From the NCBI GenBank assembly GCA_965112155.1, contig OZ218100.1: a stretch of 64,000 bases of DNA; one strand, written 5' to 3'. Shown one piece after another: positions 1,960 to 53,800 of this stretch. A program made the position numbers and the translations under genes. The notes under the pieces were generated by a model. It saw only the letters and a list, made by a program, of their open reading frames with translations. It did no database searches and was not told the origin of the DNA. The number at the start of each line of letters is the position of its first letter. The first letter of the stretch is position 1. This DNA comes from Podarcis liolepis. Taxonomy: Eukaryota.

Positions 1960-2320
1960 GGGGACGTGGGTGGCGCTGTGGTCTAAACCACAGAGCCTAG
2001 GGCTTGCCAATCAGAAGGTTGGTGGTTCGAATCCCTGTGGCAGGATGAGCTCCCGTTGCTCAGTCCCAGCTTCTGCCCACCTAGCAGTTCGAAAGCATGT
2101 CAAAGTGCAAGTAGATAAATACGTACCACTCCAGCGGGAAGGTAAACAGCGTTTCCGTGTGCTGCTCTGGTTCACCAGAAGCGGCTTAGTCATGCTGGCC
2201 ACATGACCCAGAAGCTGTCTGCGGACAAACGCCGGCTCCCTCAGCCTATAGAGTGAGATGAGCATGAAACCCCAGAGTCGTCCGTGACTGGACCTAATGG
2301 TCAGGGGTACCTTTACCTTT
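1960..2320 (+). mobile_element. Sauria SINE, full length
   Basis: tRNA-like head (TGGCGCTGTGG, GGTTCGAATCC), ACCTTT tail, imperfect TSD TAAGTGGRCACA; three homologous copies in the window. Confidence 0.88.
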
Positions 2321-7023: not shown

Positions 7024-7380
7024 AAAGGTAAAGGTAAAGGGACCCCTGAGCATTGGTCCAGTTGTGGCCGACTCTGGGGTTGCGGCGCTCATCTCGCTTT
7101 ATTGGCTGAGGGAGCTGGCGTACAGCTTCCAGGTCATGTGGCCAGCATGGCTAAGCCACTTCTGGCGAACCAGAACAGCACACGGAAACGCTGTTTACCT
7201 TCCTGCCGGAGCGGTACCAATTTATCTACTTGCACTTTGACGTGCTTTCGAACTGTTAGGTTGGCAGGAGCAGGGACCGAGCAACGGGAGCTCACCCTGT
7301 TGCGGGGATTCGAACCGCCGACCTTCTGATCGGCAAGTCCTAGGCTCTGTGGTTTAACTCACAGCACCACCCGCGTCCCC
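7024..7380 (-). mobile_element. Sauria SINE, full length
   Basis: Reverse complement of the 1960 copy; (AAAGGT)n tail; TSD AGGCAGKGTAAAG. Confidence 0.88.
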
Positions 7381-12330: not shown

Positions 12331-12714
12331 GGGATGTGGGTGGCACTGTGGTCTAAACCACAGAGCCTCTTGGGCTAGCCGATCAGAAGGTCAGCAGTTT
12401 GAATCCCCGCAACAGGGTAAGCTCCTGTTGCTCGGTCCCTGCTCCTGCCAACCTAGCAGTTCGAAAGCACGCCAGACAGTGCCAGTAGATAAATAGGTAC
12501 CGCTCCGGCGGGAAGGTAAACAGCGTTTCCGTGCGCTGCTCTGGTTTTGGTGTTCCGTTGCGCCAGAAGCGGCTTAGTCATGCTGGCCACATGACCCGGA
12601 AAAATGGTCTGCGGACAAACACCGGCTCCCTCGGCCTGTAAAGCGAGATGAGTGCCGCAACCCAGAGTCATCTGTGACTGGACTTAACTGTCAGGGGTCC
12701 TTTATCTTTACTTT
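12331..12714 (+). mobile_element. Sauria SINE, full length
   Basis: Homologous to the other copies; flanking GATTAAAGT repeat. Confidence 0.86.
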
Positions 12715-39397: not shown

Positions 39398-42300
39398 CAG
39401 ATCTTGCATAAATAAAACTCTCATTATGTACTTAAAATCAATTCCGCAGCATAAGGCCAGGATGCCATTTAGAAACTAGAAACTAATCAGGTATTTCACC
39501 CAGAAAAATACTGTCAGAGCTGCTTGAAGATCCTAGCTCACAGAGGATCACGCTAGTCAGCGGTCATTAAGTAAAAGTCTTTATTGAATTACAGTTTCCA
39601 TTCTCACGCTGCTGCGCGCAACTCTACGCCTAGTGGCTAGGTCGGCGAAGCTCCGTCTGAGTCTCCGCCCTGTGTGCACCAACTTAATATCCTAGCCTTG
39701 CTCCACCTTTTCCTCCTGACTGTCCTCCTCTGGGTCCCTCTACCCCCCGGGGCTTCTTCCTTCCGGGATTCTTCTGACGCTGACCCAGACCCTCCTGCCT
39801 CCTTGCGCCGGGCTTTAGGACCTGGTTCCCTTTCGGGGCTGCTTACTGCGCCGCCTTCCTCTGCATTTGAACTTGGCGCGCGCGCCCAACCTTCCACTTT
39901 CCTCTCAACCGTTTCTTCACTCCCCGATGGAGGTGTGGCCACTCCCGACTCATGTCCTCCCTCCTGTGGAGGTGTGGCCACTCCTGACTCATGTCCTCCC
40001 TCCTGTGGTGAGCTGCCAGCGCTTCCCCCCTGGCTCCCTTCCTCTTCCCTGCTTCCTGGCGGTGACGCTGGTCCCGATTTCCAGCTGCTCCCCCCTGAGT
40101 CCTCTCTGGCTCTGTCTTCCTGGGGTGCCCCCCTAGACTCCCCCCTTGCCCTCGCCACTGGTGCTCCTTTCTGTGAATCCTCTGATTCACTGGAAAGACT
40201 AGGAGATCTCGGGTCGTCGTCATCACTCATCTTTTCTTCTGCCTCCTCCCCTTCACTCTCTGTTTCCTCCCTTGCCCGTGCTTCTGCTCCTAAACCCCTG
40301 ACATCCATCCCCCCCTCGAAGCCCCCCATTCCCCCCTCCCCTCCTTCCGGTGCTGGAGCTGGGGGCTGCTGTTGCAAAGGGACGAACGTCGGATATCGGT
40401 CGCTTCCCGTGTCAGGTCTCCATCTGAAGTCTCCCGGGTCTTCCTCCCTGCTCTCGTCGACGACAGTCACCTCCGCTTCCATCTCTGTGCCGCCGTGCTC
40501 GAAACCAGGGTCGTCCCCGAAAACGTCCATGTCCGTCTCTCCCTCACTCCCTCCTGTCGGTGTTGCTCGTCCTGGGCCTTCCAGCCATCGTCTGCGCCAC
40601 TGCTCCTCTGGTCTATCGTCCCACCAATACGAGGGTTCTGATGCAGATCCCGAGGGTGACCCCTCCGGGGAACGGACGTCTCGTGTCGGTTCCTCGTCCG
40701 AGTCGAACCCCCGGAACGTGCTGGCCGAAAGCGTGGGCGTGAAAAGCCAGTCGTCGAAAAAGTCTGCTGGCATAGGTCTATGTGGGAAGAGGGCATGAAA
40801 CTCGTCTTTGAGCAGAGGTTCGTCTAAGGCGTAGCCCGGCACCCAGCTGTTCGCACTGGCCGGGGTGCCCTCCTTGGCGAGAAAGTATTCTACCCCCTCT
40901 TCCCCCCATCTGGAGTCCAAAATCTCAGTGACTTCGTTGATGCGCTCCTTCTGTGCCACTCCCGCGTGCCCTGTTCTGTCTCTGGCCGGACTCGGCACCG
41001 TTCCGGGTTCCTGGAACCTGTGCGGTGCCTTATAGGGAGTGAGCACCGATCTGTGGAATACCGGATGCATTCTGGAACCCTCCGGAAGCGCCAGTCTGAA
41101 AGCTACCGGGTTGACCTGCTCTTCGACTTGGTAGGGCCCCAGTTGTTTATGCCCTAGTTTCTTCTTGGCCAACGACCTGGCCGGCACTGCGTGGGCTGCT
41201 AACCAAACCCAGTCTCCCACGTGGAGCTCTTCTCCAACCCTCCTGTGCTTGTCTGCTTGTACCTTGTATGCGTGCTTGGCCAGCTCCAGGTGGCGCCTCA
41301 GCTGATCGTGGACTTCCTGCAGCTCCGACGCGAACGCATCTGCTGTCTGCGGCTCCCCCTCCCCCATTCTTTCCAGTCCCGGGAAGGTTCTGGGGTGCCT
41401 CCCGTTGTTGGCGAAGAACGGCGTGACCCCCGTGGACACGTGCTTCGTGTTGTTGTAGGCGAACTCGGCAAGCGGCAGGTAATCCACCCACGTCGCAGGC
41501 TGTTGATTTGCATAACATCTCAGGTACTGCTGCATGATGGCATTGACCCGCTCTGCCTGCCCGTTGGTCTGCGGGTGTCTCGCCGACGCCAGGTTGATCT
41601 TGACGTTCAGGAAGCCCATCAGCTTCTGCCAGAAATTCGAGATGAACTGCCGCCCCCGGTCGGACAGAATAGACCGTGGCAGACCGTGAACCTTGAACAC
41701 GTGGTCTATGAACAGTTTGGCGGTTTGCTCCGCCGTGGCCACCTTAGCACACGGAATGAAATGCGCCATCTTGGAAAACAGGTCCACCACCACCAGCACT
41801 GCCGTCTTGCCCCTTGAGCTGGGCAGATCCGTGACAAAGTCCAGGGCCACCCTTTCCCAAGGTTCGACCGGAGTTTGCAGCGGTTCCAACAGTCCGGCCG
41901 GCGGTTTGTGCACTGGTTTGGCCCTCTGGCAGGTGTCACACCTCGCCACGTAGTCTGCGACCTCCCCTCTCATTCCAGGCCACCAGAAATCCCTGGCTAC
42001 TAATTCCACCGTCTTCTCCTTGCCAAAGTGCCCGGCCGTGGGCGCGTCGTGCAGCTGCTGCAGCACCTTGGCTCGAAGTTCGTCTCCCGGCACGTAGATG
42101 GCCCCTTTACGGATGAGCAATCCATCTCTTAGCTGGAAACCGTCGGCCGCTGCCTTGCCCCTTTGCACCTCTGCCATCTTTGCTTGTGCGAAGGAGTCCC
42201 CCTGCAACGCTCGTCGCACCGCCTCTAGGTCCACGGTCGCCGCGGCGCACGCCCACACTGTTGGTGCGAAGATGTGCATGGCGGCCGCTGGTGTTGCGTC

Positions 42301-45300
42301 CTCCAGATACTGTGGCTTACGGGAGAGAGCGTCTGCCATGATGTTGGTGTCCCCCGGGACATACTCTATTCGGAAGTCGAAGTTTGCAAAGAACTCAGCC
42401 CAACGTATCTGCCTCTGGTTCAGGAACTGTGCCGTGCGCCAGTGCTCTAGATTCTTGTGGTCCGTGCAAACCTGCACCGTGTGCTTGGCGCCGATCAGAA
42501 AGTGCCTCCACGCCTTGAACGCTGCGTGAATGGCCAGCAACTCCCTGTCCCAGATGGTGTAGTTCTGTTCGGACTTGCTGAGCTTCCTGGAGTAAAACGC
42601 TCCCGGTCGCCACACCCCCTGCGGGTCTTTCTGCAGCAGGACCGCCCCCACGGCTCTGTCCGAGGCGTCTGTCTCCACCCTCATCGGCTTGCTGGGGTTG
42701 ACATGAAGCAGCTGCTCTTCCGACGCGAAGAGACGCTTGAGTGCCTGAAAGGACTGCTCCGCCTGCTCTGTCCAAACGAACTTCTTTTTCTTGGAGCTAA
42801 GCGTGTCAGTGATGGCCGCTGTCTGCATAGCGAAGCCCTTGATAAACTTGCGATAGAAGTTCGCAAAGCCGACAAACCGTTGGACCTCCTTCCGGTTGCG
42901 CGGACTCTTCCAATCCAACACCGCTCGAACCTTGGCGCTGTCCATGGCGAGCCCCTTGTCAGACAGCTTGTAGCCCAGAAAATCCACCTCCGGCACGTCA
43001 AATTGGCACTTCTCCAGCTTGGCGTAGAGCCTATGTTGCTTTAGCCTGCTCAGCACTTCCTTGACGTGTCCGTCATGCTCCTGCCGCGACTCCGAAAAGA
43101 TCAGGATGTCATCTAAGAAACAGACGCACGTCTTGTAGAGAAGCCCTGCCAACACGTGATGCATAAACGCTTGAAAAACGTGGGAGCCATTTTGCAATCC
43201 AAAAGGCATAACTCTATATTCGTAGGTCCCCAGTGGCGTGAACATGGCTGTCTTCCACTCATCTCCTTCCCGCATGCGAATGAGGTTGTACGCCCCCCGC
43301 AGGTCCAGCTTGGTGAACACTCTGCCCTTCCGTACCTTTGCGAGGAGGTCGTCAATACGGGGCATGGGGAAGTCCGATGGCCTAGTCAGACTGTTCAAAA
43401 TCCTGTAATCCACTACCAGTCTTTTTTGGGGCGTGTTCCGCTTCTTAACAAAGAATACGGGACTGCCCCCCACTGCCCTGGACTCCCGGATGAAGCCGCG
43501 TTGCAAATTATGATCAATGAACGCCTTGAGTTCTTGCAGTTCGTCCTCTGACATGGAATACAGTTTCCCTTTAGGCAGCGCCGCCCCCGGCAGCAGGTCA
43601 ATTTTGCAGTCATATGGTCTGTGAGGGGGTAGCCTGTCTGCCTCCTTCTCGCAGAAAACTTCCAAAAATTCAGCGTACTTGTGGGGAATCGCTTGCAGCG
43701 TGCCTAGCAGCAGCTGTGACTCCTCTTCTTCTCCTTCCTGCCTGGGCACGATGCAGTGTTCAGCACAAAAGGAAGAGCCGAAGGTCAGCTGCCTCTGGTA
43801 CCAAGCCATCGCTGGGCTGTGCTTGTCCAGCCAACTCATGCCCAATACAATGGGCGTGTCAGATAGTTGAGTGACGTTGAAGCTGATGATTTCTCTGTGA
43901 TTCCCAAGTCGCATCACCATTGGTGGCGTCTGCTTCACCACTTGCCCCCCGAGCAGCTCCCTGCCATCCACCGTGACAACCTGCAGGGGCAGTGTGGCCG
44001 GCAGCAACTGCACAGCGTGCCTGTCGACAAAGTCCTGCCCTATAAAGTCCGCATTGCTGCCTGAGTCAATGGTGATTGGTACGTCCATGGTGATTCCATT
44101 GGGCAGCTGGAGAGACGCTGTGAGCCTCACTACTGGTTTGGGCGGGAGGGGGTTCACGGGCTGTAAAATCTCTGGGGACTGCGTCACTAACACGTCTGGC
44201 TGGGCCCCAGTGCCTCTTCCTCCAGCCAGACAGCCTCGTTTCCCTGCTGTGGTCCTCCTTGCTGTGTTGCTGCAGTCACCATTGCTGAGGCTGCAGTGAG
44301 CTTGTGGGGCCTCTGGGGACACTCTTTCGCCATATGCCCTGGCTCCTCACAGACGTAACACTTCCTGTTCCCTCTAGGAGGCTTCGCTTTCACTGCTGCC
44401 GGTGCTAGGGCTCTGGCTGCTGACTGAGCCCTTGCACCTCCCACCTCCATAGGTTCGGTTCCTCCTCCTGGCGGAGGCGTGGATTGCGCCCGCGCTGCTT
44501 CCCTGGGAAAGAAGGAGGGGCCCCCGGCTGGTTCGCGCCCTCCACGCCCTTCGTCCCTGTTCCACGGACGTCCTTCCAGCCTCACCCCCACTGCCAGTGC
44601 CCTCTGCACGACCTCCTGGGTGGTTCGGGGTCTCTCCCCCCTCGCTATCTCATCTTTAATCGAGTTGTGCAGCCCCTCCCAAAAGAGGTCTCTTACAGGA
44701 GCCGAATCTCTGCCCCATTCCAGGGCACTGACCAAGGCGAAAAAGCGGGCATGATACTGCCTGACGCTGGCCCTCCCTTGTCTCAGCCCATGCACCTCCT
44801 TCCGTGCAAGATCCACGTCAATACTTGATAAAAAACACCCATCCATTGCTTTAATAAAGGCATCTGCATTCTGTAGCACCGGATCCTTATCTCTCCATAA
44901 ATTGCGTAGCCATGCTCTCGCATCCCCATGCAGATGGGACATGATGAACCCCACTCTCTCTTGTTCATCTCTAAAGTCTTTATGCAGCAGTTGCAGTGCG
45001 CACAGTACGTCGGCTCTAAAGTTGGGATACTGTTGCAGGTTCCCATCGAAGTGAGAGACCAGCCCGCCTGTCCGTCTCGCCAACCCAATTCCCTCCTGCC
45101 GGGGTGTCTGCTTTGTCAGCACGTCTAACCTGACCTGGAGATCCCTGCAGGCTGCGGCTGCCTCCTCCTCTCTCTTCCTGGATGCGAGAGCCTCGGCGTT
45201 CAGTTGTGCCACCGCGTTTCTGAGTTCCTCTATCTGCTGCTCAGCCGTCATGTCGTCTGCCGTTCGTGAGCTCGCTAGTAGGCACCTGTGTCTCTCCCCT

Positions 45301-48300
45301 CCTCGAGGCTGTAGATGCCCACAAGTGGAGACGGAGCTTACTGTCAGAGCTGCTTGAAGATCCTAGCTCACAGAGGATCACGCTAGTCAGCGGTCATTAA
45401 GTAAAAGTCTTTATTGAATTACAGTTTCCATTCTCACGCTGCTGCGCGCAACTCTACGCCTAGTGGCTAGGTCGGCGAAGCTCCGTCTGAGTCTCCGCCC
45501 TGTGTGCACCAACTTAATATCCTAGCCTTGCTCCACCTTTTCCTCCTGACTGTCCTCCTCTGGGTCCCTCTACCCCCCGGGGCTTCTTCCTTCCGGGATT
45601 CTTCTGACGCTGACCCAGACCCTCCTGCCTCCTTGCGCCGGGCTTTAGGACCTGGTTCCCTTTCGGGGCTGCTTACTGCGCCGCCTTCCTCTGCATTTGA
45701 ACTTGGCGCGCGCGCCCAACCTTCCACTTTCCTCTCAACCGTTTCTTCACTCCCCGATGGAGGTGTGGCCACTCCCGACTCATGTCCTCCCTCCTGTGGA
45801 GGTGTGGCCACTCCTGACTCATGTCCTCCCTCCTGTGGTGAGCTGCCAGCGCTTCCCCCCTGGCTCCCTTCCTCTTCCCTGCTTCCTGGCGGTGACGCTG
45901 GTCCCGATTTCCAGCTGCTCCCCCCTGAGTCCTCTCTGGCTCTGTCTTCCTGGGGTGCCCCCCTAGACTCCCCCCTTGCCCTCGCCACTGGTGCTCCTTT
46001 CTGTGAATCCTCTGATTCACTGGAAAGACTAGGAGATCTCGGGTCGTCGTCATCACTCATCTTTTCTTCTGCCTCCTCCCCTTCACTCTCTGTTTCCTCC
46101 CTTGCCCGTGCTTCTGCTCCTAAACCCCTGACAAATACTTTCCCCTGGAGTGATGATAGAATCATAGAATTGCAGAATTGGAAGGAGACCCGGGGGTTAT
46201 CTAGTCCAGCCTCGTGCAGTGCAAGAATCTCAGCTAAAGCATCCATGCTAGATGGCCACCCAAAGTCTGCTTAAAAACTTCCAATGAAAGAAAGTCCACC
46301 AAAACATGGAGCTCACAAGCTCTCTCTTTTCCTTCAGTTTTCTCACTGACTGCCAGGTTTGCAGCAAACCATAGTTTGCTATTGTATCCAAACCAGACAA
46401 ACTGGGAACACACTACAGTTTGCCTTTAAACCAGAATTGGAAGCCACATTCAAACCAGGGGTGGCTTGCATGGCCCAAAGGATGGAGAAACCATTATTTG
46501 GCATTACATTATTTTGCCCACGATCTGCATATTTTAAAATTTGTCTGCATAGTTTGTCTGAGCTACAAATTTGCAATCCGTTTATAAATAGCTGACCTTT
46601 TAAGGAATCCAAAGCTCTGTACAAGTGGAGTTCTAAATATATTAATCAAGCTACCTATACTTCCCATAATGTCTGCATAGGTAGGTACATGTTGGATATG
46701 TGCTATGTTACACTTATCCTCAACTGTTCTAGTATCCTCCTTTCTCCATTTGTAACACCAAGCAGAAGTCTTGGTTCATGATAGATTCTAGCCTAATCTA
46801 CATAGCGTTGTTTTATTATCTCCCCCTTCTGTGTGCTTTGTAAACACAACTCATTTTTAGGTTTAAGTTCTGGTTACTGTTTTCTAAAAGTCTGCTGGCT
46901 TGACATAGTGTCCTGGCTTGTGCCATGGTCTGTATAGATTAATTGTGATTTATTTGTATGTTTGAACCCACATCAGCCAATGGTTTGTGGCCAGCAAAGC
47001 AGAATGTGAAACCATGGCTTGAAATTGGTTTAATGAATCTCTGCTTGCATCAACCATGGTTTTTTGTTATGTCCAAACCCAATGTCCTGTTTAATTCTTA
47101 CATAGTTCCAGAAATGCAAAGCAAAAGCAGCTAGAAAATTAAACTAACATGATGCAAAACAAGGCACAGTTACTCTGCTGGTCAACATACCACAGTTAAA
47201 ACAAGCTGTGGCTTAGCGTTATGTCTGAACACAGCCTTTTCCTAAGGTTTGCACGCATGTAAACAGCCTCACTGTCATGTTTCTGTAGTGTTTATGTCAA
47301 GTACTACAGGTTTTTTCCCCCTCCCCTGTGGATCTACAGTTCTGTTACCAAAGAAGATCAGGAAAAAGAGAGCCCTGACCAACCAAGTCCTGCCCCAACA
47401 GATGAACCTTCTGAAGCCCTAAACACTCCAGAAAGTGAGAGCTACAAAGAGAATCACACCAGTGACTCTGATTCAGATGGGCCAATACTCTACACAGATG
47501 ATGATGATGAAGATGATGATGATGGTAGTGAAAGTAAGCCATTAAGCCATGTTTACAAGGGGGAGGGAAACATACTTGTTGAGCAGAGAATTATACCGCC
47601 TTGTCAGAAGAGTCAAGTTCCACTTTATTTGGGATCCTCCATCAAGTCAGACCGTTACCCAGGCAAACGTCTACGTAGTTAAGGAATACCACCTTGCTTA
47701 CTTCAGTTGTTGGAACTGCAGAGGTGATGGCACAGTACCAGTTGCAGCAGGATGTATGTGCAGGCGCATAAACCTTATAGTGTAGCACGCTATTATACCG
47801 TTATCGCAGGTTGAGGGACTGTGCTGATAGAGAGTGACTTGCAGCAGTCTTGCATTGTAGCATACTGCTAATGTTGAAGGTCAGAGATGTGGGGTGGGGA
47901 AGCTGGTTTATATTCCCAGACAAAAGTCCTCCAGATCTCTCTCAGGTTTCAGCAAAGATGTGTCTGCTGAAATTGCTCCTTTGGACCTCTTCCCAGGTCA
48001 AATCAGGTACTCCATTTCACACAGAAGCCTCATGCTCTGTGAACTTTCATTTAATCTAATTGCAATTTTACACATTTTTTAAAAATATTTTTTTTAATGA
48101 GCATGAAGAAAGACATGCCTGTGTGAGGCAGCTGCAGCCATCACCAACTTCATTTCCCCCAAATGTATCTGGGGGATACATATTCCCCCAAATATGTGGG
48201 CCAGAGGCATTTGGGGAAAGTTAACATTGTGGTGGCTGCAACTGCTTGGCCTAACACTTCTCCAGTACCAGGGTGCTTGGCAGCCCTTGCTTTTGCTGCC

Positions 48301-50822
48301 CTCCTGCAAGTTCATGGGCAGAAGCAACAAGGTGGTCAGGAGGTTGGAGCAGAGGACACTCGAACCAGGTGCTGGCCCAGAATAGGCACTCAAATTATAG
48401 TTTTTTCCACATATAGGTCATTTTGATACCAGGTTAATATGCCTGGGCCTTTACTGGCTCTTAGTGGTATCTGAGAATCCTATTAATTGCCTTTTCCTAA
48501 TGCTTTATTGGGGGACGCAGGTGGGGGTGGGGGTTAAACCACAGAGCCTAGGTCTTGCCGATCAGAAGGTCGGTGGTTCGAATCCCCACGACGGGATGAG
48601 CTCCTGTTGCTCGGTCCCTGCTCCTGCCAACCTAGCAGTTCGAAAGCACGTCAAAGTGCAAGTAGATAAATAGGTACCGCTCCAGTGGGAAGGTAAACGG
48701 CATTTCTGTGCGCTGCTCTGGTTCGCCAGAAGAGGCTTAGTCATGCTGGCCACATGATCCGGAAGCTGTACGCCAGCTCCCTCAGCCAGTAAAGCAAGAT
48801 GAGCGCCACAACCCCAGAGTCAGCCAGAACTGGACCTAATGGTCAGGGGTCCCTTTAATGCTTTATTGAGGGCTTTACTTGCTGATGTCCTGTCTATTTT
48901 ACAGTGTTATTTGTGTATTGTATCTTGTCTTTTAGTATTATCCTAGAAGACTATTTTGGCAAATGATGGGCATAAATATATCTTAAATAATAAATTAAGT
49001 ATACATGCCACTTAAATAAATCAATGTATGTAGGGGTCAAAGGGTTTTGATTTGTTCCATTTGTTTTTTGAGTACATATTATCATCATCCAGAAACTTGT
49101 TGTTCTGGATTTGTCTGAGACCACTGAAATAACTTTTTTTAAAAAAACAGTGTGATAAATACATAATAATAAATGCATGCTATATATTTGTTTAGAAATA
49201 ATTGCTTGTTGATTATTGTTGAGGACAATCTTTTTAAAAAATATGCAAATGTGTTAATGAGAGAACTGAAACTGTATTCTTACTATGCAGCAAGTTGCTA
49301 AAGCTGAGATTTTATATCAAGTTATTTCATAGGCACTGGGGAAAGTTTGTGAACTTTCTGACTGCGCCCTAGCAGGCAGGTTGTTATTTTCTAAGTTATT
49401 CAAATTCTTGTGGGCATGAAGTAAGTCAAAAGTCTTACTTTTGTCAGTAAGTCTTACTTGCTTCAGATGCTAATTAAAATTCCTCCATTGAAAGAATGCA
49501 AAGATAGAAGGTGTTCATGGGTTGCATTAAAAAGCTTTTTGCTGGGATTTGGAATGTTTAAGCCCAAATATGAATGAATCAATGAACCTCTCCCTCCCTT
49601 TATCCTCTTCTTCCATTCCATCCCAGGCTCTTTAGCAAGCAAAATACGCCGTAGGGATACTCTTGCAATCAAACTTGGCAACAGGCCATCGAAGAAAGAA
49701 CTGGAAGACAAAAACATCTTGCCAAGAACATCTGAAGAGGAGAGGCAGGAAATCAGACATCAGATTGGCACAAAGCTTGTGAGGTATCAGTTGTCATCTG
49801 AGCACATTTTGGGAGGTGGGAAGAGAGAATAGAGGCAGGTCTGGGGTCTGACCCAGATGTTTTCCTGTTCTGTGAGCTGAGGCATGTCCTAACATTATAA
49901 AATAAATCACACTTCATAATTATGAACCCACTACAGCTATGACACTTGATCTGACTTTATTTGTTTTCAGTAGAAGGAATTTGCTATTGTTCAACACTTC
50001 CCCACACAAAGCCGCAACAAAAATAATACAGCTGTTAATCACTGATATCTTGGTCGCATTCCCATCCTGCTTACTCATGTGTTTTGGATAGAAGCTAGGC
50101 CAAATACATAAAGCAAAACAAACAAATAGCATTTCAGGTATGAATCATTTTAACTGCAGGTGGTTGCTGCTTCGTTTTGTTATATGACAAGTACTTAGCT
50201 GGCTTGAAAAATCTGAACTTCAGACATCTTGTTGGGTAATTTTTCTGATCAACTCACATCTTACATTGATACAACTTTTATGTACTACTTCTGAAGTTAC
50301 TTGACATAAAAAGCATTTTGCTTTAACTGAGCATGTTTCTCTAAGCCTTTTGCCTGAAATCTAGCCTTTTATTTTCTTCTTGCATCATCTGAGCAGATTC
50401 CCTCATGCATTGCCAGAGGATGGTGAAAAAAATGAGTGTCTCCCACTATTACTTAATGGATTATTTGCTTTATGATATTGAGGATTGTTTTTGAACAATC
50501 AAGCAGTTATATACATTTTATGAAATAAAAAAATTCAGATACATAGCTGATCTTGTGAAAGGTTAAATGTGACTTGATAAGCATTTATTTCCAAACCCAT
50601 GTTAACCCCATTCAGCAACACATTTGATACAGCCACCATTAGTATAAACTGGCATTTGAAATTTTTGGTTTGAAAATAAATGTAGCTGTTGCATTTCAGT
50701 TCTCTGTCTTAGTGACTGAAAATCTGCATTATTTTCCTTTTTTTCCCTTTTTTGCAGGAGGCTTAGCCAGAGGCCTACTTCAGAAGAACTAGAACAGAGA
50801 AACATCCTAAGACGTAAGCAAA

Positions 50823-50867
<45 letters not shown>

Positions 50868-53800
50868 TGTATAAATAATTTCTTTTTCTTGGAGACTAAG
50901 ATAGTGCATGATCATATCAGATGCCAACCTGAAATCTGGGTCAAATGAATTTAGAGACATTCCCAGAATTTTGAGCCATGACAGGTGAATGAAGATAGCT
51001 TATAACATTGTAGAGCTGCTTGAATCAAACATCTTGTTTTGTGACCATGGCATATTGCCTATGCAACTAGTTTGCAGTTTGCATGACAGCAAGAAGGTTA
51101 AATATCTTCTTAGCACCGAGTTTCATTAATACCCATTGTATATCTAGCAAATTGCAGATCTGGAGCCTTAATGTCTGTAGGCTTTGCCATCTTGCCAAAA
51201 CGAGCTTTCTAGAAACATGTCATAGCTCTATGTGCCAGCTGAAGAATATTAATGATTACCACTACATGTAAAACCAGCAGACAGAATCTGCTTTCTGTAG
51301 CATTCCAGTATCCCAGAGCTCTGTTTGTCTTTTCTTTTTCATTTCCTTAGCAAGCCTACAAAGTTATATAAACATAACTAATCCCCAGAGGACATGATGG
51401 AAAATTCAGTTTTATGCTGTTGGGTTACATTAGAGCACAAAACTGAACTGTGTGCGACCAACAGTCAGTCAGGTGGACAAAAATCCTGTGAAATTAAATA
51501 AACAGGAAGGTAGCATGGTACTATATAAAAAGGGGTGCTGGCAGATCAAGACGAAGGTCTATGAGCATACCTTACAGGATTGGTGCTTCCAGATTGTTGG
51601 TAAATTCAGGTGGAATTCATTCACATGCCAGCAAATTCAGGGCTCCCAATTATAGTGGGTTGGGAGGTCTTGTGCAAAAACCTGCTTCCCCCGAAGACTG
51701 GACTTTTTTCAATAAGGAAAGTGATGGGGAGATATACTAGAAAATGTGGAATAACACTGACTCTGATACAACATCAGCTCCCCTCAAACAAATCAGGATG
51801 GGTGCTTGTTACTCAGGATGTCCGAAAGCAACCACTTTGCCTAAGGTTATTCATGGCACATTCAGTTTGACCATTGCTTCTTTGGGTTTCTTGCTCTCTC
51901 TCTACTTTGATTGGTAATAATGAAGGCTTCCCATCTACTGTTCCTCATCTGGGACAGTGACTGTAACATGCTGAGAAGTAAAAAGGGGAGGAAACCAGAA
52001 TGAGTTAGGAATAAAGTTGAAAGCATTGGTACTCAAACCAGCCTAGTGCTATACAGTAGTTAACATTCCTTTTAAATATTCCTACCTTTTCTCTCTTTCA
52101 TCTAAAAACAGAAAAGAATGAAGAAGAGGAACAAGAAGCTAAAAGAGAATTGAAGCGCAGTCTCAGCAGAAAGGTACGCAAAATGTCTTCTGTAACCCAG
52201 AGATTTCCAAACCGTGTGTCATGCTTGACACGTTGGTGTGTCGACTGCTGTGTGTAGGTGTGCTGTGCGAACGCTCCCCATGCTCCTCCCGGGGCTGGAA
52301 CGGGAGCTGGTAGTCCACTGGTTTTCTAGGAAAACTGAATTACTGTGTCGTGGAATGATGCATGTCTAAATAATGTGTCACCAACATGAAAAGTTGGGTA
52401 CCCTGATAGCAAATTGGGTGCTGCTTATCTGCAGGGTGTGTCTTTTCCAACATTAGTCCTTGCTCTGCTTTCCTTTGGTTTGTTCACCTAGCCTTCTTTT
52501 ACAGCTCAGTCTGAGACCAACAGTGGCTGAGCTGCAAGCAAGAAGAATCCTGCGTTTTAATGAGTATGTGGAAGTAACAGATTCTCCAGATTATGATCGT
52601 CGTGCTGACAAGCCCTGGGCAAGGTTAACCCCTGCAGACAAGGCAAGAGACAAATATGGATTATAAATGCAACTTTGTTTCTGTATCTCAGAAATTTTCT
52701 TTGTCCTTATATTTTCCGGCAGAAACTTCTGCTAATTCCTGCAGCAGAGGTTGCTTCCAAATATATGTATGTACCCATGGATAGCGCACATCCATCTAGA
52801 AGGAAAAATACGCCGACCAGATGTAGTGGTCCAGTTTTCTCCTTTGGCCCAGGGACTCTCCCTGTCAGGCGCTGGGAGTTCTCTTCAAGCCATATCCTCT
52901 CATCCTAGTCCCCAGCCCCAGCCTTATTTCACACCCTTCTTAGTGGAATGTTATCTTTGAGCTCCCTCAACTATTTTTTTTCTAGTTGGAGAATAAAGAG
53001 GAATGATTCAATGTGTGCAGAAATTAGTCTACTGTACAAAGGTAAACGTTGCTATCATTGCTCTGTCCACTTTTTCTTCTGGCCCTACACATCACTGGTG
53101 GGGAATGTACCCCCAGAATGTTGCCTAGAAGGGAATGCAGCCCTGCAGCTGAAAAATATTCCCTACTATTGCTTTAAAGCAGGCATAGGCAAACTCGGCC
53201 CTCCAGATGTTTTGGGACTACAATTCCCATCATCCCTGACCACTGGTCCTGTTAGCTAGGGATGATGGGAGTTGTAGTCCCAAAACATCTGGAGGGCCGA
53301 GTTTGCCTATGCCTGCTTTAAACCATAGCTCAAGGTGCCTGCAGCCTTCATTCCTCTCCCGCATCTTCCAGCATTCCAGGGAGGAAATTCATGCTACTAA
53401 GTTTGGAACTAGGCAGCCTGGCATCTCTACCTCCACTTCCTCTCCCCACACCTAATGTTCAGTAACATAAAACTCATGGTGTGACGTCGCCATGTTGCAA
53501 GTTTCCAGTGCCTTGCTCCACTTCATTCTCTGACAGTTTCGCATTACTGAACATCACCGTCAGAAAAGGGAGAATGTAAATTCTATTTAGGTGCTGATAC
53601 CTAAACCCCACAGCTTTTAATCACCATGTTGCACCCACTTGGCCCCACTAGGTATTGGGTTGTGAGTAAGGTCTTTTACCTTTAACATATGCAACTCTAT
53701 ACATGTAAGGCCTGTATATGTGGTTAGAAACCCTGGTCGGGTCAAGGTTCCCAATCACACATGACTGTATTGAGGGGAATATGAGAAGAGGTCTCTAATT

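What the first reader, a model, noticed from the sequence alone, without database searches (positions are those of the whole stretch)
45329..45520. tRNA-independent self-priming: the PBS is complementary to the element's own predicted 5' end
Seen: after the 5' LTR the minus strand reads GT-AAGCTCCGTCT, with no TGG, so it cannot pair with a tRNA CCA end. The exact 11-nt complement AGACGGAGCTT lies in the LTR at 45488-45478, about 30 nt downstream of a TATA-like ATATTAA, where a TSS is expected. The enclosed R-U5 loop can form extra stems (AGAGTTGC/GCAGCTCT, CCTAG/CTAGG, GATCCT/AGGATC). Known: S. pombe Tf1 primes reverse transcription with the first 11 nt of its own mRNA, and this has been proposed for vertebrate Tf1/sushi elements. 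Inference: this is an intact lizard element suited to testing that mechanism.
Basis: partly seen in the sequence, partly recalled or inferred. Interest (0 to 1): 0.75.

Follow-up and report, generated by a model that had tools for sequence, protein, structure and literature searches.

The report
Self-priming signature in lizard retrotransposon
This intact, recently inserted lizard jumping gene has no tRNA landing site; that site instead pairs with 11 letters of its own terminal repeat, exactly where RNA of this family starts, so it likely primes its own copying like fission-yeast Tf1, a mechanism already proposed for its whole group.

Summary
Observation confirmed. A complete Ty3/gypsy element (46133-39512, minus strand; identical 792-nt LTRs, 5-bp target duplication, open gag and pol) has an 11-nt PBS at 45339-45329 with no TGG and its exact complement at 45488-45478 (expected 2.6e-4). 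New evidence: in one single-cell RNA run, 46 of 879 laid reads carry the template-switch adaptor joined exactly at 45488, so RNA 5' ends of the family fall on the first base of the predicted primer. These reads are family-wide, from another species label, and are not linked to PBS-containing RNA. The RT-RNase H tree puts the element among squamate elements inside the fungi+vertebrate chromoviruses, the Tf1/sushi group, for which self-priming is already described as common. Nine of 13 distant relatives show own-LTR pairing with different letters. Not shown: cleavage, priming, primer/PBS covariation within the family, the third 'pretzel' helix; host tRNAs could not be searched. Verdict: new member of a known kind, with transcript-level support that my paper searches did not find for a vertebrate. 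The scan noted similar signatures in diatom Copia and BEL/Pao elements, none for this sequence.

The parts
45342..46133 (-). 5' LTR, 792 nt, TG...CA ends
   Evidence: identical to the 3' LTR over 795 nt including 3 shared flanking bases
39512..40303 (-). 3' LTR, identical copy
46134..46138 (-). 5-bp target-site duplication GTATT (other copy at 39511-39507)
   Evidence: flank contexts
45514..45520 (-). TATA-like box, 32-26 nt upstream of the RNA start
   Evidence: function inferred
45478..45488 (-). first 11 nt of the RNA, predicted self-primer; 45488 is the RNA 5' end seen in family reads and sits in a pyrimidine-C-A context like an initiator (motif recalled)
45459..45471 (-). small hairpin next to the primer (45471-45467 with 45463-45459); its outer pair is C-G here and U-A in other copies
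   Evidence: fold; variant rows scored
45345..45456 (-). predicted 9-bp helix joining R (45456-45448) to the U5 end (45353-45345), just 5' of the PBS; equivalent of one flanking duplex of the Tf1 structure; encloses two further predicted stems
   Evidence: mean pair probability 0.97; predicted only
45410..45415 (-). AATAAA, candidate poly(A) signal; its use is not shown
   Evidence: no poly(A) end among the rows shown
45329..45339 (-). primer-binding site, 2 nt after the LTR end, no TGG, exact complement of 45488-45478
45273..45327 (-). predicted leader hairpin directly 3' of the PBS
   Evidence: mean pair probability 0.92; predicted only
44187..45251 (-). gag, 354 aa, capsid and CCHC knuckle
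44172..44244 (-). predicted -1 frameshift signal: in-frame GGGAAAC (44244-44238), 11-bp stem (44232-44222 with 44203-44193) and a crossing 6-bp stem (44210-44205 with 44177-44172)
   Evidence: same heptamer as PEG10 (PMC2800197)
39637..44346 (-). pol frame, 1569 aa without a stop: protease, RT (FLDD), RNase H, integrase, SH3, degenerate chromodomain, long tail running through U3 of the 3' LTR
40795..40935 (-). degenerate chromodomain
   Evidence: Pfam Chromo E 0.0014, 18.9 bits, under the cut-off of 25.1
40304..40345 (-). purine-rich tract before the 3' LTR (PPT)

Best explanation
[quoted passage not shown] Shown: the element's anatomy, the exact 11-nt complementarity, the lack of TGG, and RNA 5' ends of the family at 45488. 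Predicted: the 5' end folds back on the PBS about 150 nt downstream, helped by an R-U5 helix that closes the loop. Inferred from Tf1: RNase H cuts after base 11, and the freed 3'-OH is extended through the 2-nt spacer into U5 to make minus-strand strong-stop DNA.
For: Exact 11-mer, expected 2.6e-4. 46 of 879 laid reads of RNA run X24 have the template-switch adaptor joined at 45488; LTR reads lie mostly on the element's sense strand (about 235 against 8 in that bin). The three genomic bases upstream of 45488 hold no G, so the site fails the guanosine criterion for strand-invasion artefacts (bioRxiv 2021.04.04.438388). A TATA-like box lies 32 nt upstream. Primer:PBS pairs have probability 0.73-1.0 in the fold. 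One compensatory pair (45471/45459, C-G to U-A; 194 of 195 and 180 of 180 reads in X24) supports the adjacent hairpin; of 9 listed variable places in 45488-45329, 1 breaks a predicted pair (permutation P 0.078; together with a compensatory pair 0.024). Tree: squamate clade (SH-aLRT 98) within vertebrates plus fungi (100), plants apart. Relatives: 9 of 13 loci with a usable LTR end have 9 or more Watson-Crick pairs to their own LTR, against 18 of 182 cross-comparisons, and 0 of 13 have TGG. Group-wide self-priming and the Tf1 steps are stated in PMC6317226, bioRxiv 2022.12.06.519325, PMC4600332 and PMC7175516.
Against: No priming or cleavage product was seen; no adaptor end at 45477 among the 24 of 113 loose-end rows shown. 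The reads are 90 nt, cover the family at 80% likeness or more, come from organism D (DNA share 0.39-0.52), are not de-duplicated, and cannot be tied to a 5' LTR or to RNA that reaches the PBS; the leader has low depth on both strands (about 9-16), and most LTR depth includes U3. The tool's own table of start/end pile-ups listed none (threshold: a fifth of the depth). A second adaptor site at 45500 (20 reads) exists, judged an artefact by inference. No primer/PBS covariation inside the family was seen; the absence of variants in those 22 nt among the 40 of 131 places shown is not significant (P 0.24). The third Tf1 duplex (PBS-adjacent leader with LTR) was not found. The inner region is not unusually stable (z -0.31). 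Host tRNAs could not be searched.
Confidence: 0.85

Rival explanations
1. The primer comes in trans: short capped transcripts started at 45488 from solo or 3' LTRs, or a second packaged genome, donate the 11-mer to the PBS of another RNA.
For: Adaptor-tagged reads in this kind of library are expected to come from short cDNAs (inference); LTR depth exceeds leader depth more than tenfold and 31 reads run off the LTR end into mixed flanks, so LTR-only RNA is plentiful.
Against: The fold closes the primer on the PBS within one molecule with probability near 1, and the R-U5 helix makes sense as an intramolecular clamp; Tf1 is described as folding its own 5' UTR.
Confidence: 0.07
2. A host tRNA fragment or other small RNA primes at the PBS, and the LTR 11-mer is a regulatory cover or a relic.
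For: Half-tRNA priming exists in Ty1/copia lineages. The host tRNA set could not be searched.
Against: No TGG here or in 13 of 13 relatives; PBS letters differ between families and follow each family's own LTR; the RNA starts at the first paired base; PMC6317226 found half-tRNA priming only in Ty1/copia among plant elements.
Confidence: 0.05
3. The complementarity is structural only (packaging, translation control or RNA stability) or chance, and priming happens elsewhere.
For: The inner region is no more stable than shuffles; no priming product was seen.
Against: Chance expectation 2.6e-4; the paired stretch starts 2 nt after the LTR end, where a PBS must lie, and ends at the RNA 5' end; no other PBS candidate.
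Confidence: 0.03

Closest known systems
[quoted passage not shown] 2001, known here only through citations
   Same: Vertebrate chromovirus by tree; non-tRNA PBS complementary to own LTR; CCHC gag; gag-pol joined by a predicted -1 frameshift; chromodomain position.
   Different: Chromodomain is degenerate; pol runs through the whole U3 of the 3' LTR; RT motif is FLDD. No named V-clade reference was in my tree, so placement rests on host-labelled proteins.
Tf1/Tf2 of Schizosaccharomyces pombe and Tj1 of S. japonicus
   Same: First 11 nt of the RNA complementary to a PBS just after the 5' LTR; a flanking R-U5 duplex.
   Different: Tf1/Tf2 have one ORF and no CCHC; the third duplex of the 'pretzel' was not found here; cleavage and priming are proven for Tf1, not here.
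Podarcis muralis Gypsy polyproteins in UniRef (P0002, P0004-P0006, P0009)
   Same: 81-93% identity over RT-RNase H; P0002 shares the U3-spanning tail and ends at the same residue.
   Different: Database entries carry only an automatic name; no priming analysis found for them.
Plant CRM group A centromeric chromoviruses
   Same: Polyprotein frame extends into the 3' LTR (PMC3059260).
   Different: Plant clade, tRNA-primed, LTR encodes the CR motif; no CR motif or centromere targeting was tested here.

Membership tests
Ty3/gypsy LTR retrotransposon | LTRs, target duplication, gag and PR-RT-RH-IN order, PPT | tested here: met
Chromovirus | chromodomain after the integrase | tested here: inconclusive
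   remnant at E 0.0014, 18.9 bits against a cut-off of 25.1; the sister subfamily P0013 has it at E 1.5e-11
Tf1/sushi group | RT-based placement in the fungi+vertebrate cluster, apart from plant chromoviruses | tested here: met
   quick IQ-TREE tree of 49 rows, none left out: support 100 for fungi+vertebrates, 98 for squamates; no bootstrap and no named reference element
Tf1/sushi group | PBS not complementary to a tRNA 3' end (no TGG) | tested here: met
Tf1/sushi group | 10 nt or more complementary to own 5' LTR, starting 0-5 nt after the LTR (criterion of PMC6317226) | tested here: met
   11 nt, offset 2
Tf1-type self-priming | RNA 5' end at the first base of the primer | tested here: met
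   46 of 879 reads with adaptor at 45488, family-wide and not linked to PBS-containing RNA
Tf1-type self-priming | duplex between the sequence 5' of the PBS and the LTR downstream of the primer | tested here: met
   predicted 9-bp helix, probability 0.97; prediction only
Tf1-type self-priming | third duplex between the sequence 3' of the PBS and the LTR ('pretzel') | tested here: not met
   no strong ungapped helix from the PBS-adjacent leader; best crossing helix is 8 bp, 57 nt away, about chance level; the leader folds locally. Bulged helices were not excluded.
Tf1-type self-priming | RNase H cleavage after the primer and extension into cDNA | not testable with these tools
   RNase H catalytic motifs intact; no product data
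Tf1/sushi group (non-fission-yeast members) | -1 frameshift between gag and pol | tested here: met
   overlap, in-frame GGGAAAC and predicted pseudoknot; group trait
tRNA-half-primed elements | PBS complementary to an internal tRNA segment | not testable with these tools
   no genome held, no tRNA in the window, no tRNA list in the supplements reached; Rfam gave no tRNA match to 45200-45600

The most novel reading that the evidence does not exclude
This lizard lineage self-primes, with RNA starts mapped to the primer's first base in a vertebrate, and has also replaced its chromodomain by an integrase tail encoded through the whole U3 of the 3' LTR that steers integration, converging on plant centromeric CRM elements; the same 11 bases then serve as RNA start, primer and integrase-tail codons.
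Probability: 0.2. Interest if true: 0.65.

Novelty: new member of a known kind. Interest (0 to 1): 0.4.

Why it matters
Self-priming is proven for Tf1 and, in the papers I could see, implied for vertebrates from sequence. Here RNA 5' ends of a lizard family fall on the first base of the predicted primer, which turns a sequence guess into a transcript-supported prediction, in a young, intact, expressed family. It is not a new mechanism. The U3-encoded integrase tail beside a decayed chromodomain is the less expected feature and may be worth more than the priming.

Tried and rejected
Host genome: none held, so no copy census, no within-genome covariation, no host tRNA search. tRNA lists: supplement of PMC11417395 unreadable; PMC5605243, PMC11574265 and PMC12716993 gave no hit even for the positive-control motif, and some files were not searched, so these blanks say nothing. 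No RNA holder was listed on record; X2 is RNA only by guess and its contigs cannot show starts. Adaptor site at 45500 (20 reads): rejected as a start because the adaptor's G run lies on genomic GGG and two of three upstream bases are G; edit distance not computed. RT stalling as the cause of the 45488 ends: rejected by reasoning, since a stall is expected at the 3' side of a helix, not its 5' edge. Related loci: 97 fetched; none close (47% or less); only 15 had an LTR pair with both 3' ends inside the contig, 2 of these lacked a shared CA end, leaving 13; 4 of the 13 (L027, L041, L065, L085) fell under 9 Watson-Crick pairs, and five of the 13 belong to one fungal-type family, so they are not independent. 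The careful tree did not finish; the quick tree was used. The 8-bp loop-to-leader helix (45372-45365 with 45272-45265) is about chance level. Rfam: one chance-level hit. Paper searches that found no 5'-end or priming experiment for a vertebrate member, judged from listings; subscription papers, including Butler 2001, are not in the library.

Full report
Observation. The finding lies at the 5' end of a complete LTR retrotransposon on the minus strand. The LTRs (46133-45342 and 40303-39512, 792 nt, TG...CA) are identical and are flanked by a 5-bp duplication, so the insertion is recent. Two bases after the 5' LTR comes the 11-mer at 45339-45329; its exact complement lies at 45488-45478. The match is exactly 11 nt, occurs nowhere else in the window apart from the second LTR, and is expected 2.6e-4 times in an LTR of this composition. 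There is no TGG. The single ATATTAA of the LTR starts 32 nt upstream of 45488.

What the element is. gag (354 aa) has capsid and CCHC matches; the pol frame (1569 aa, no stop) has protease, RT, RNase H, integrase and a Tf2-type SH3, with catalytic motifs in place. gag and pol overlap at an in-frame GGGAAAC followed by a predicted pseudoknot, the heptamer that PEG10 uses (PMC2800197, passages). The closest single-domain relatives are Podarcis muralis entries at 81-93% identity, then other Podarcis (66-67%) and Anolis (54-56%); the host is therefore probably a lacertid lizard (inference). A quick tree of 49 RT-RNase H rows places it in a squamate clade (98) inside a fungi+vertebrate clade (100), with plant elements apart. 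That matches the Tf1/sushi group as described in bioRxiv 2022.12.06.519325 and PMC6317226 (passages). No named member such as sushi-ichi was in the tree, and the careful search did not finish. The chromodomain is only a remnant.

The start site. I laid four runs on 45060-45710 at 80% likeness. In X24, a single-cell RNA run read to about 12%, 879 reads were laid, mostly in the element's sense over the LTR. Forty-six of them have a non-genomic tail joined at 45488; the tail is the 10x template-switch oligo as printed in PMC10110464 (passages), with its G run outside the genomic match. This marks RNA 5' ends at the first base of the predicted primer. The three bases upstream contain no G, so the site fails the guanosine criterion for strand invasion given in bioRxiv 2021.04.04.438388 (passages). 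A second site at 45500 (20 reads) sits on a genomic G run and is likely such an artefact. Limits: the run is labelled organism D, whose DNA runs hold 39-52% of the sampled words; reads are family-wide, 90 nt long and not de-duplicated; they cannot say whether the RNA came from a 5' LTR and went on to the PBS; the tool's pile-up table listed no site; only 24 of 113 loose-end rows were shown.

Structure. Without the primer helix the enclosed region is not more stable than shuffles (z -0.31). Of the 40 variable places shown (of 131), nine fall in 45488-45329: five are unpaired, two form one compensatory change (45471/45459), one keeps its pair, one breaks a terminal pair (P 0.078 for so few breaks; 0.024 together with a compensatory pair). 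None falls in the primer or PBS, which is not significant (P 0.24) and gives no covariation. Tf1 needs three duplexes; the one from the leader 3' of the PBS to the LTR was not found.

Relatives. Of 97 loci, 13 had a usable LTR end. Nine have 9 or more Watson-Crick pairs between the stretch after the LTR and their own LTR, against 18 of 182 cross-comparisons, many of those between kin; none has TGG. The two that group with fish elements (L021, L025) have 9 and 11 nt with letters unlike the lizard's. Four fall short, and five are one family. This agrees with the published view and shows that the pairing, not the letters, is kept.

Mechanism. Shown: anatomy, complementarity, family RNA starts at 45488. 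Predicted: fold-back on the PBS. Inferred from Tf1 (PMC7175516, passages): RNase H cuts between bases 11 and 12 and RT extends the freed primer. I give this 0.85. Priming in trans (0.07), by a tRNA fragment (0.05) or a merely structural role (0.03) remain; the tRNA test could not be run, and unseen supplements or the host tRNA set may bear on it.

Novelty. Self-priming is called a common feature of the group in bioRxiv 2022.12.06.519325 and likely common in PMC6317226, and 'implicated' from fungi to vertebrates in PMC4600332 (passages); Butler 2001 and the Levin papers were seen only as citations. PMC3601003 and PMC5341516 (passages) add context only. Five searches (listings only) showed no 5'-end mapping or priming test for a vertebrate member, but the library lacks subscription papers. 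So this is a new member of a known kind, with one useful piece of transcript evidence. The scan's earlier notes describe like signatures in diatom Copia and BEL/Pao elements (unchecked, no effect on my reading) and nothing like this sequence.

The side finding. The pol frame runs through the whole U3 of the 3' LTR without a stop (P 0.0007 by base shuffles, which ignore the simple-repeat make-up), and a P. muralis relative ends at the same residue. Plant CRM group A elements also extend pol into the 3' LTR, where a targeting motif is encoded (PMC3059260, passages). Whether this tail has taken over from the decayed chromodomain is untested; I give the combined bold reading 0.2. Overall interest 0.4.

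Noticed in passing
window 40795-39637, minus strand: The pol frame continues about 385 codons past a degenerate chromodomain and through all of U3 (0 stops in 214 codons; 13 and 4 in the other frames; shuffles P 0.0007), over the TATA-like box and the primer, and stops inside the hairpin next to the primer. P0002 ends at the same residue; P0013 and P0015 end in a similar basic stretch plus Trp; P0030 and P0041 end near an RRS.R motif. A likeness to nucleosome-binding motifs is recalled, untested.
   Followed up: partly
window 44244-44172, minus strand: Predicted -1 frameshift signal with the same heptamer as PEG10 and a predicted H-type pseudoknot.
   Followed up: partly
window about 43116-43105, minus strand (pol aa 410-413): RT motif is FLDD rather than YLDD, shared by all eight close Podarcis relatives checked (P0002, P0004-P0006, P0009, P0013-P0015), while YLDD or YIDD dominates the other hits.
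   Followed up: partly
window 45758-45834 and 39928-40004: 39-nt tandem duplication inside U3, in frame with pol.
   Followed up: no
window 45342 in run X24: 31 reads run through U5 off the LTR end into mixed flanks, and no poly(A) end after AATAAA is among the rows shown, so termination in the LTR may be weak.
   Followed up: no
window 1960-2313, 7055-7380, 12369-12703, 48511-48836: Four copies of an about 330-nt interspersed repeat, 80-93% alike; resembles Sauria SINE by recall.
   Followed up: no
window 53170-53325: 68-nt inverted repeat, 97% complementary, 20 nt apart.
   Followed up: no
L049, L052, L059, L065, L079, L085: Fungal-side relatives show a TATAA box about 30 nt upstream of their own predicted primers (upstream sequences), the same layout as here.
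   Followed up: partly
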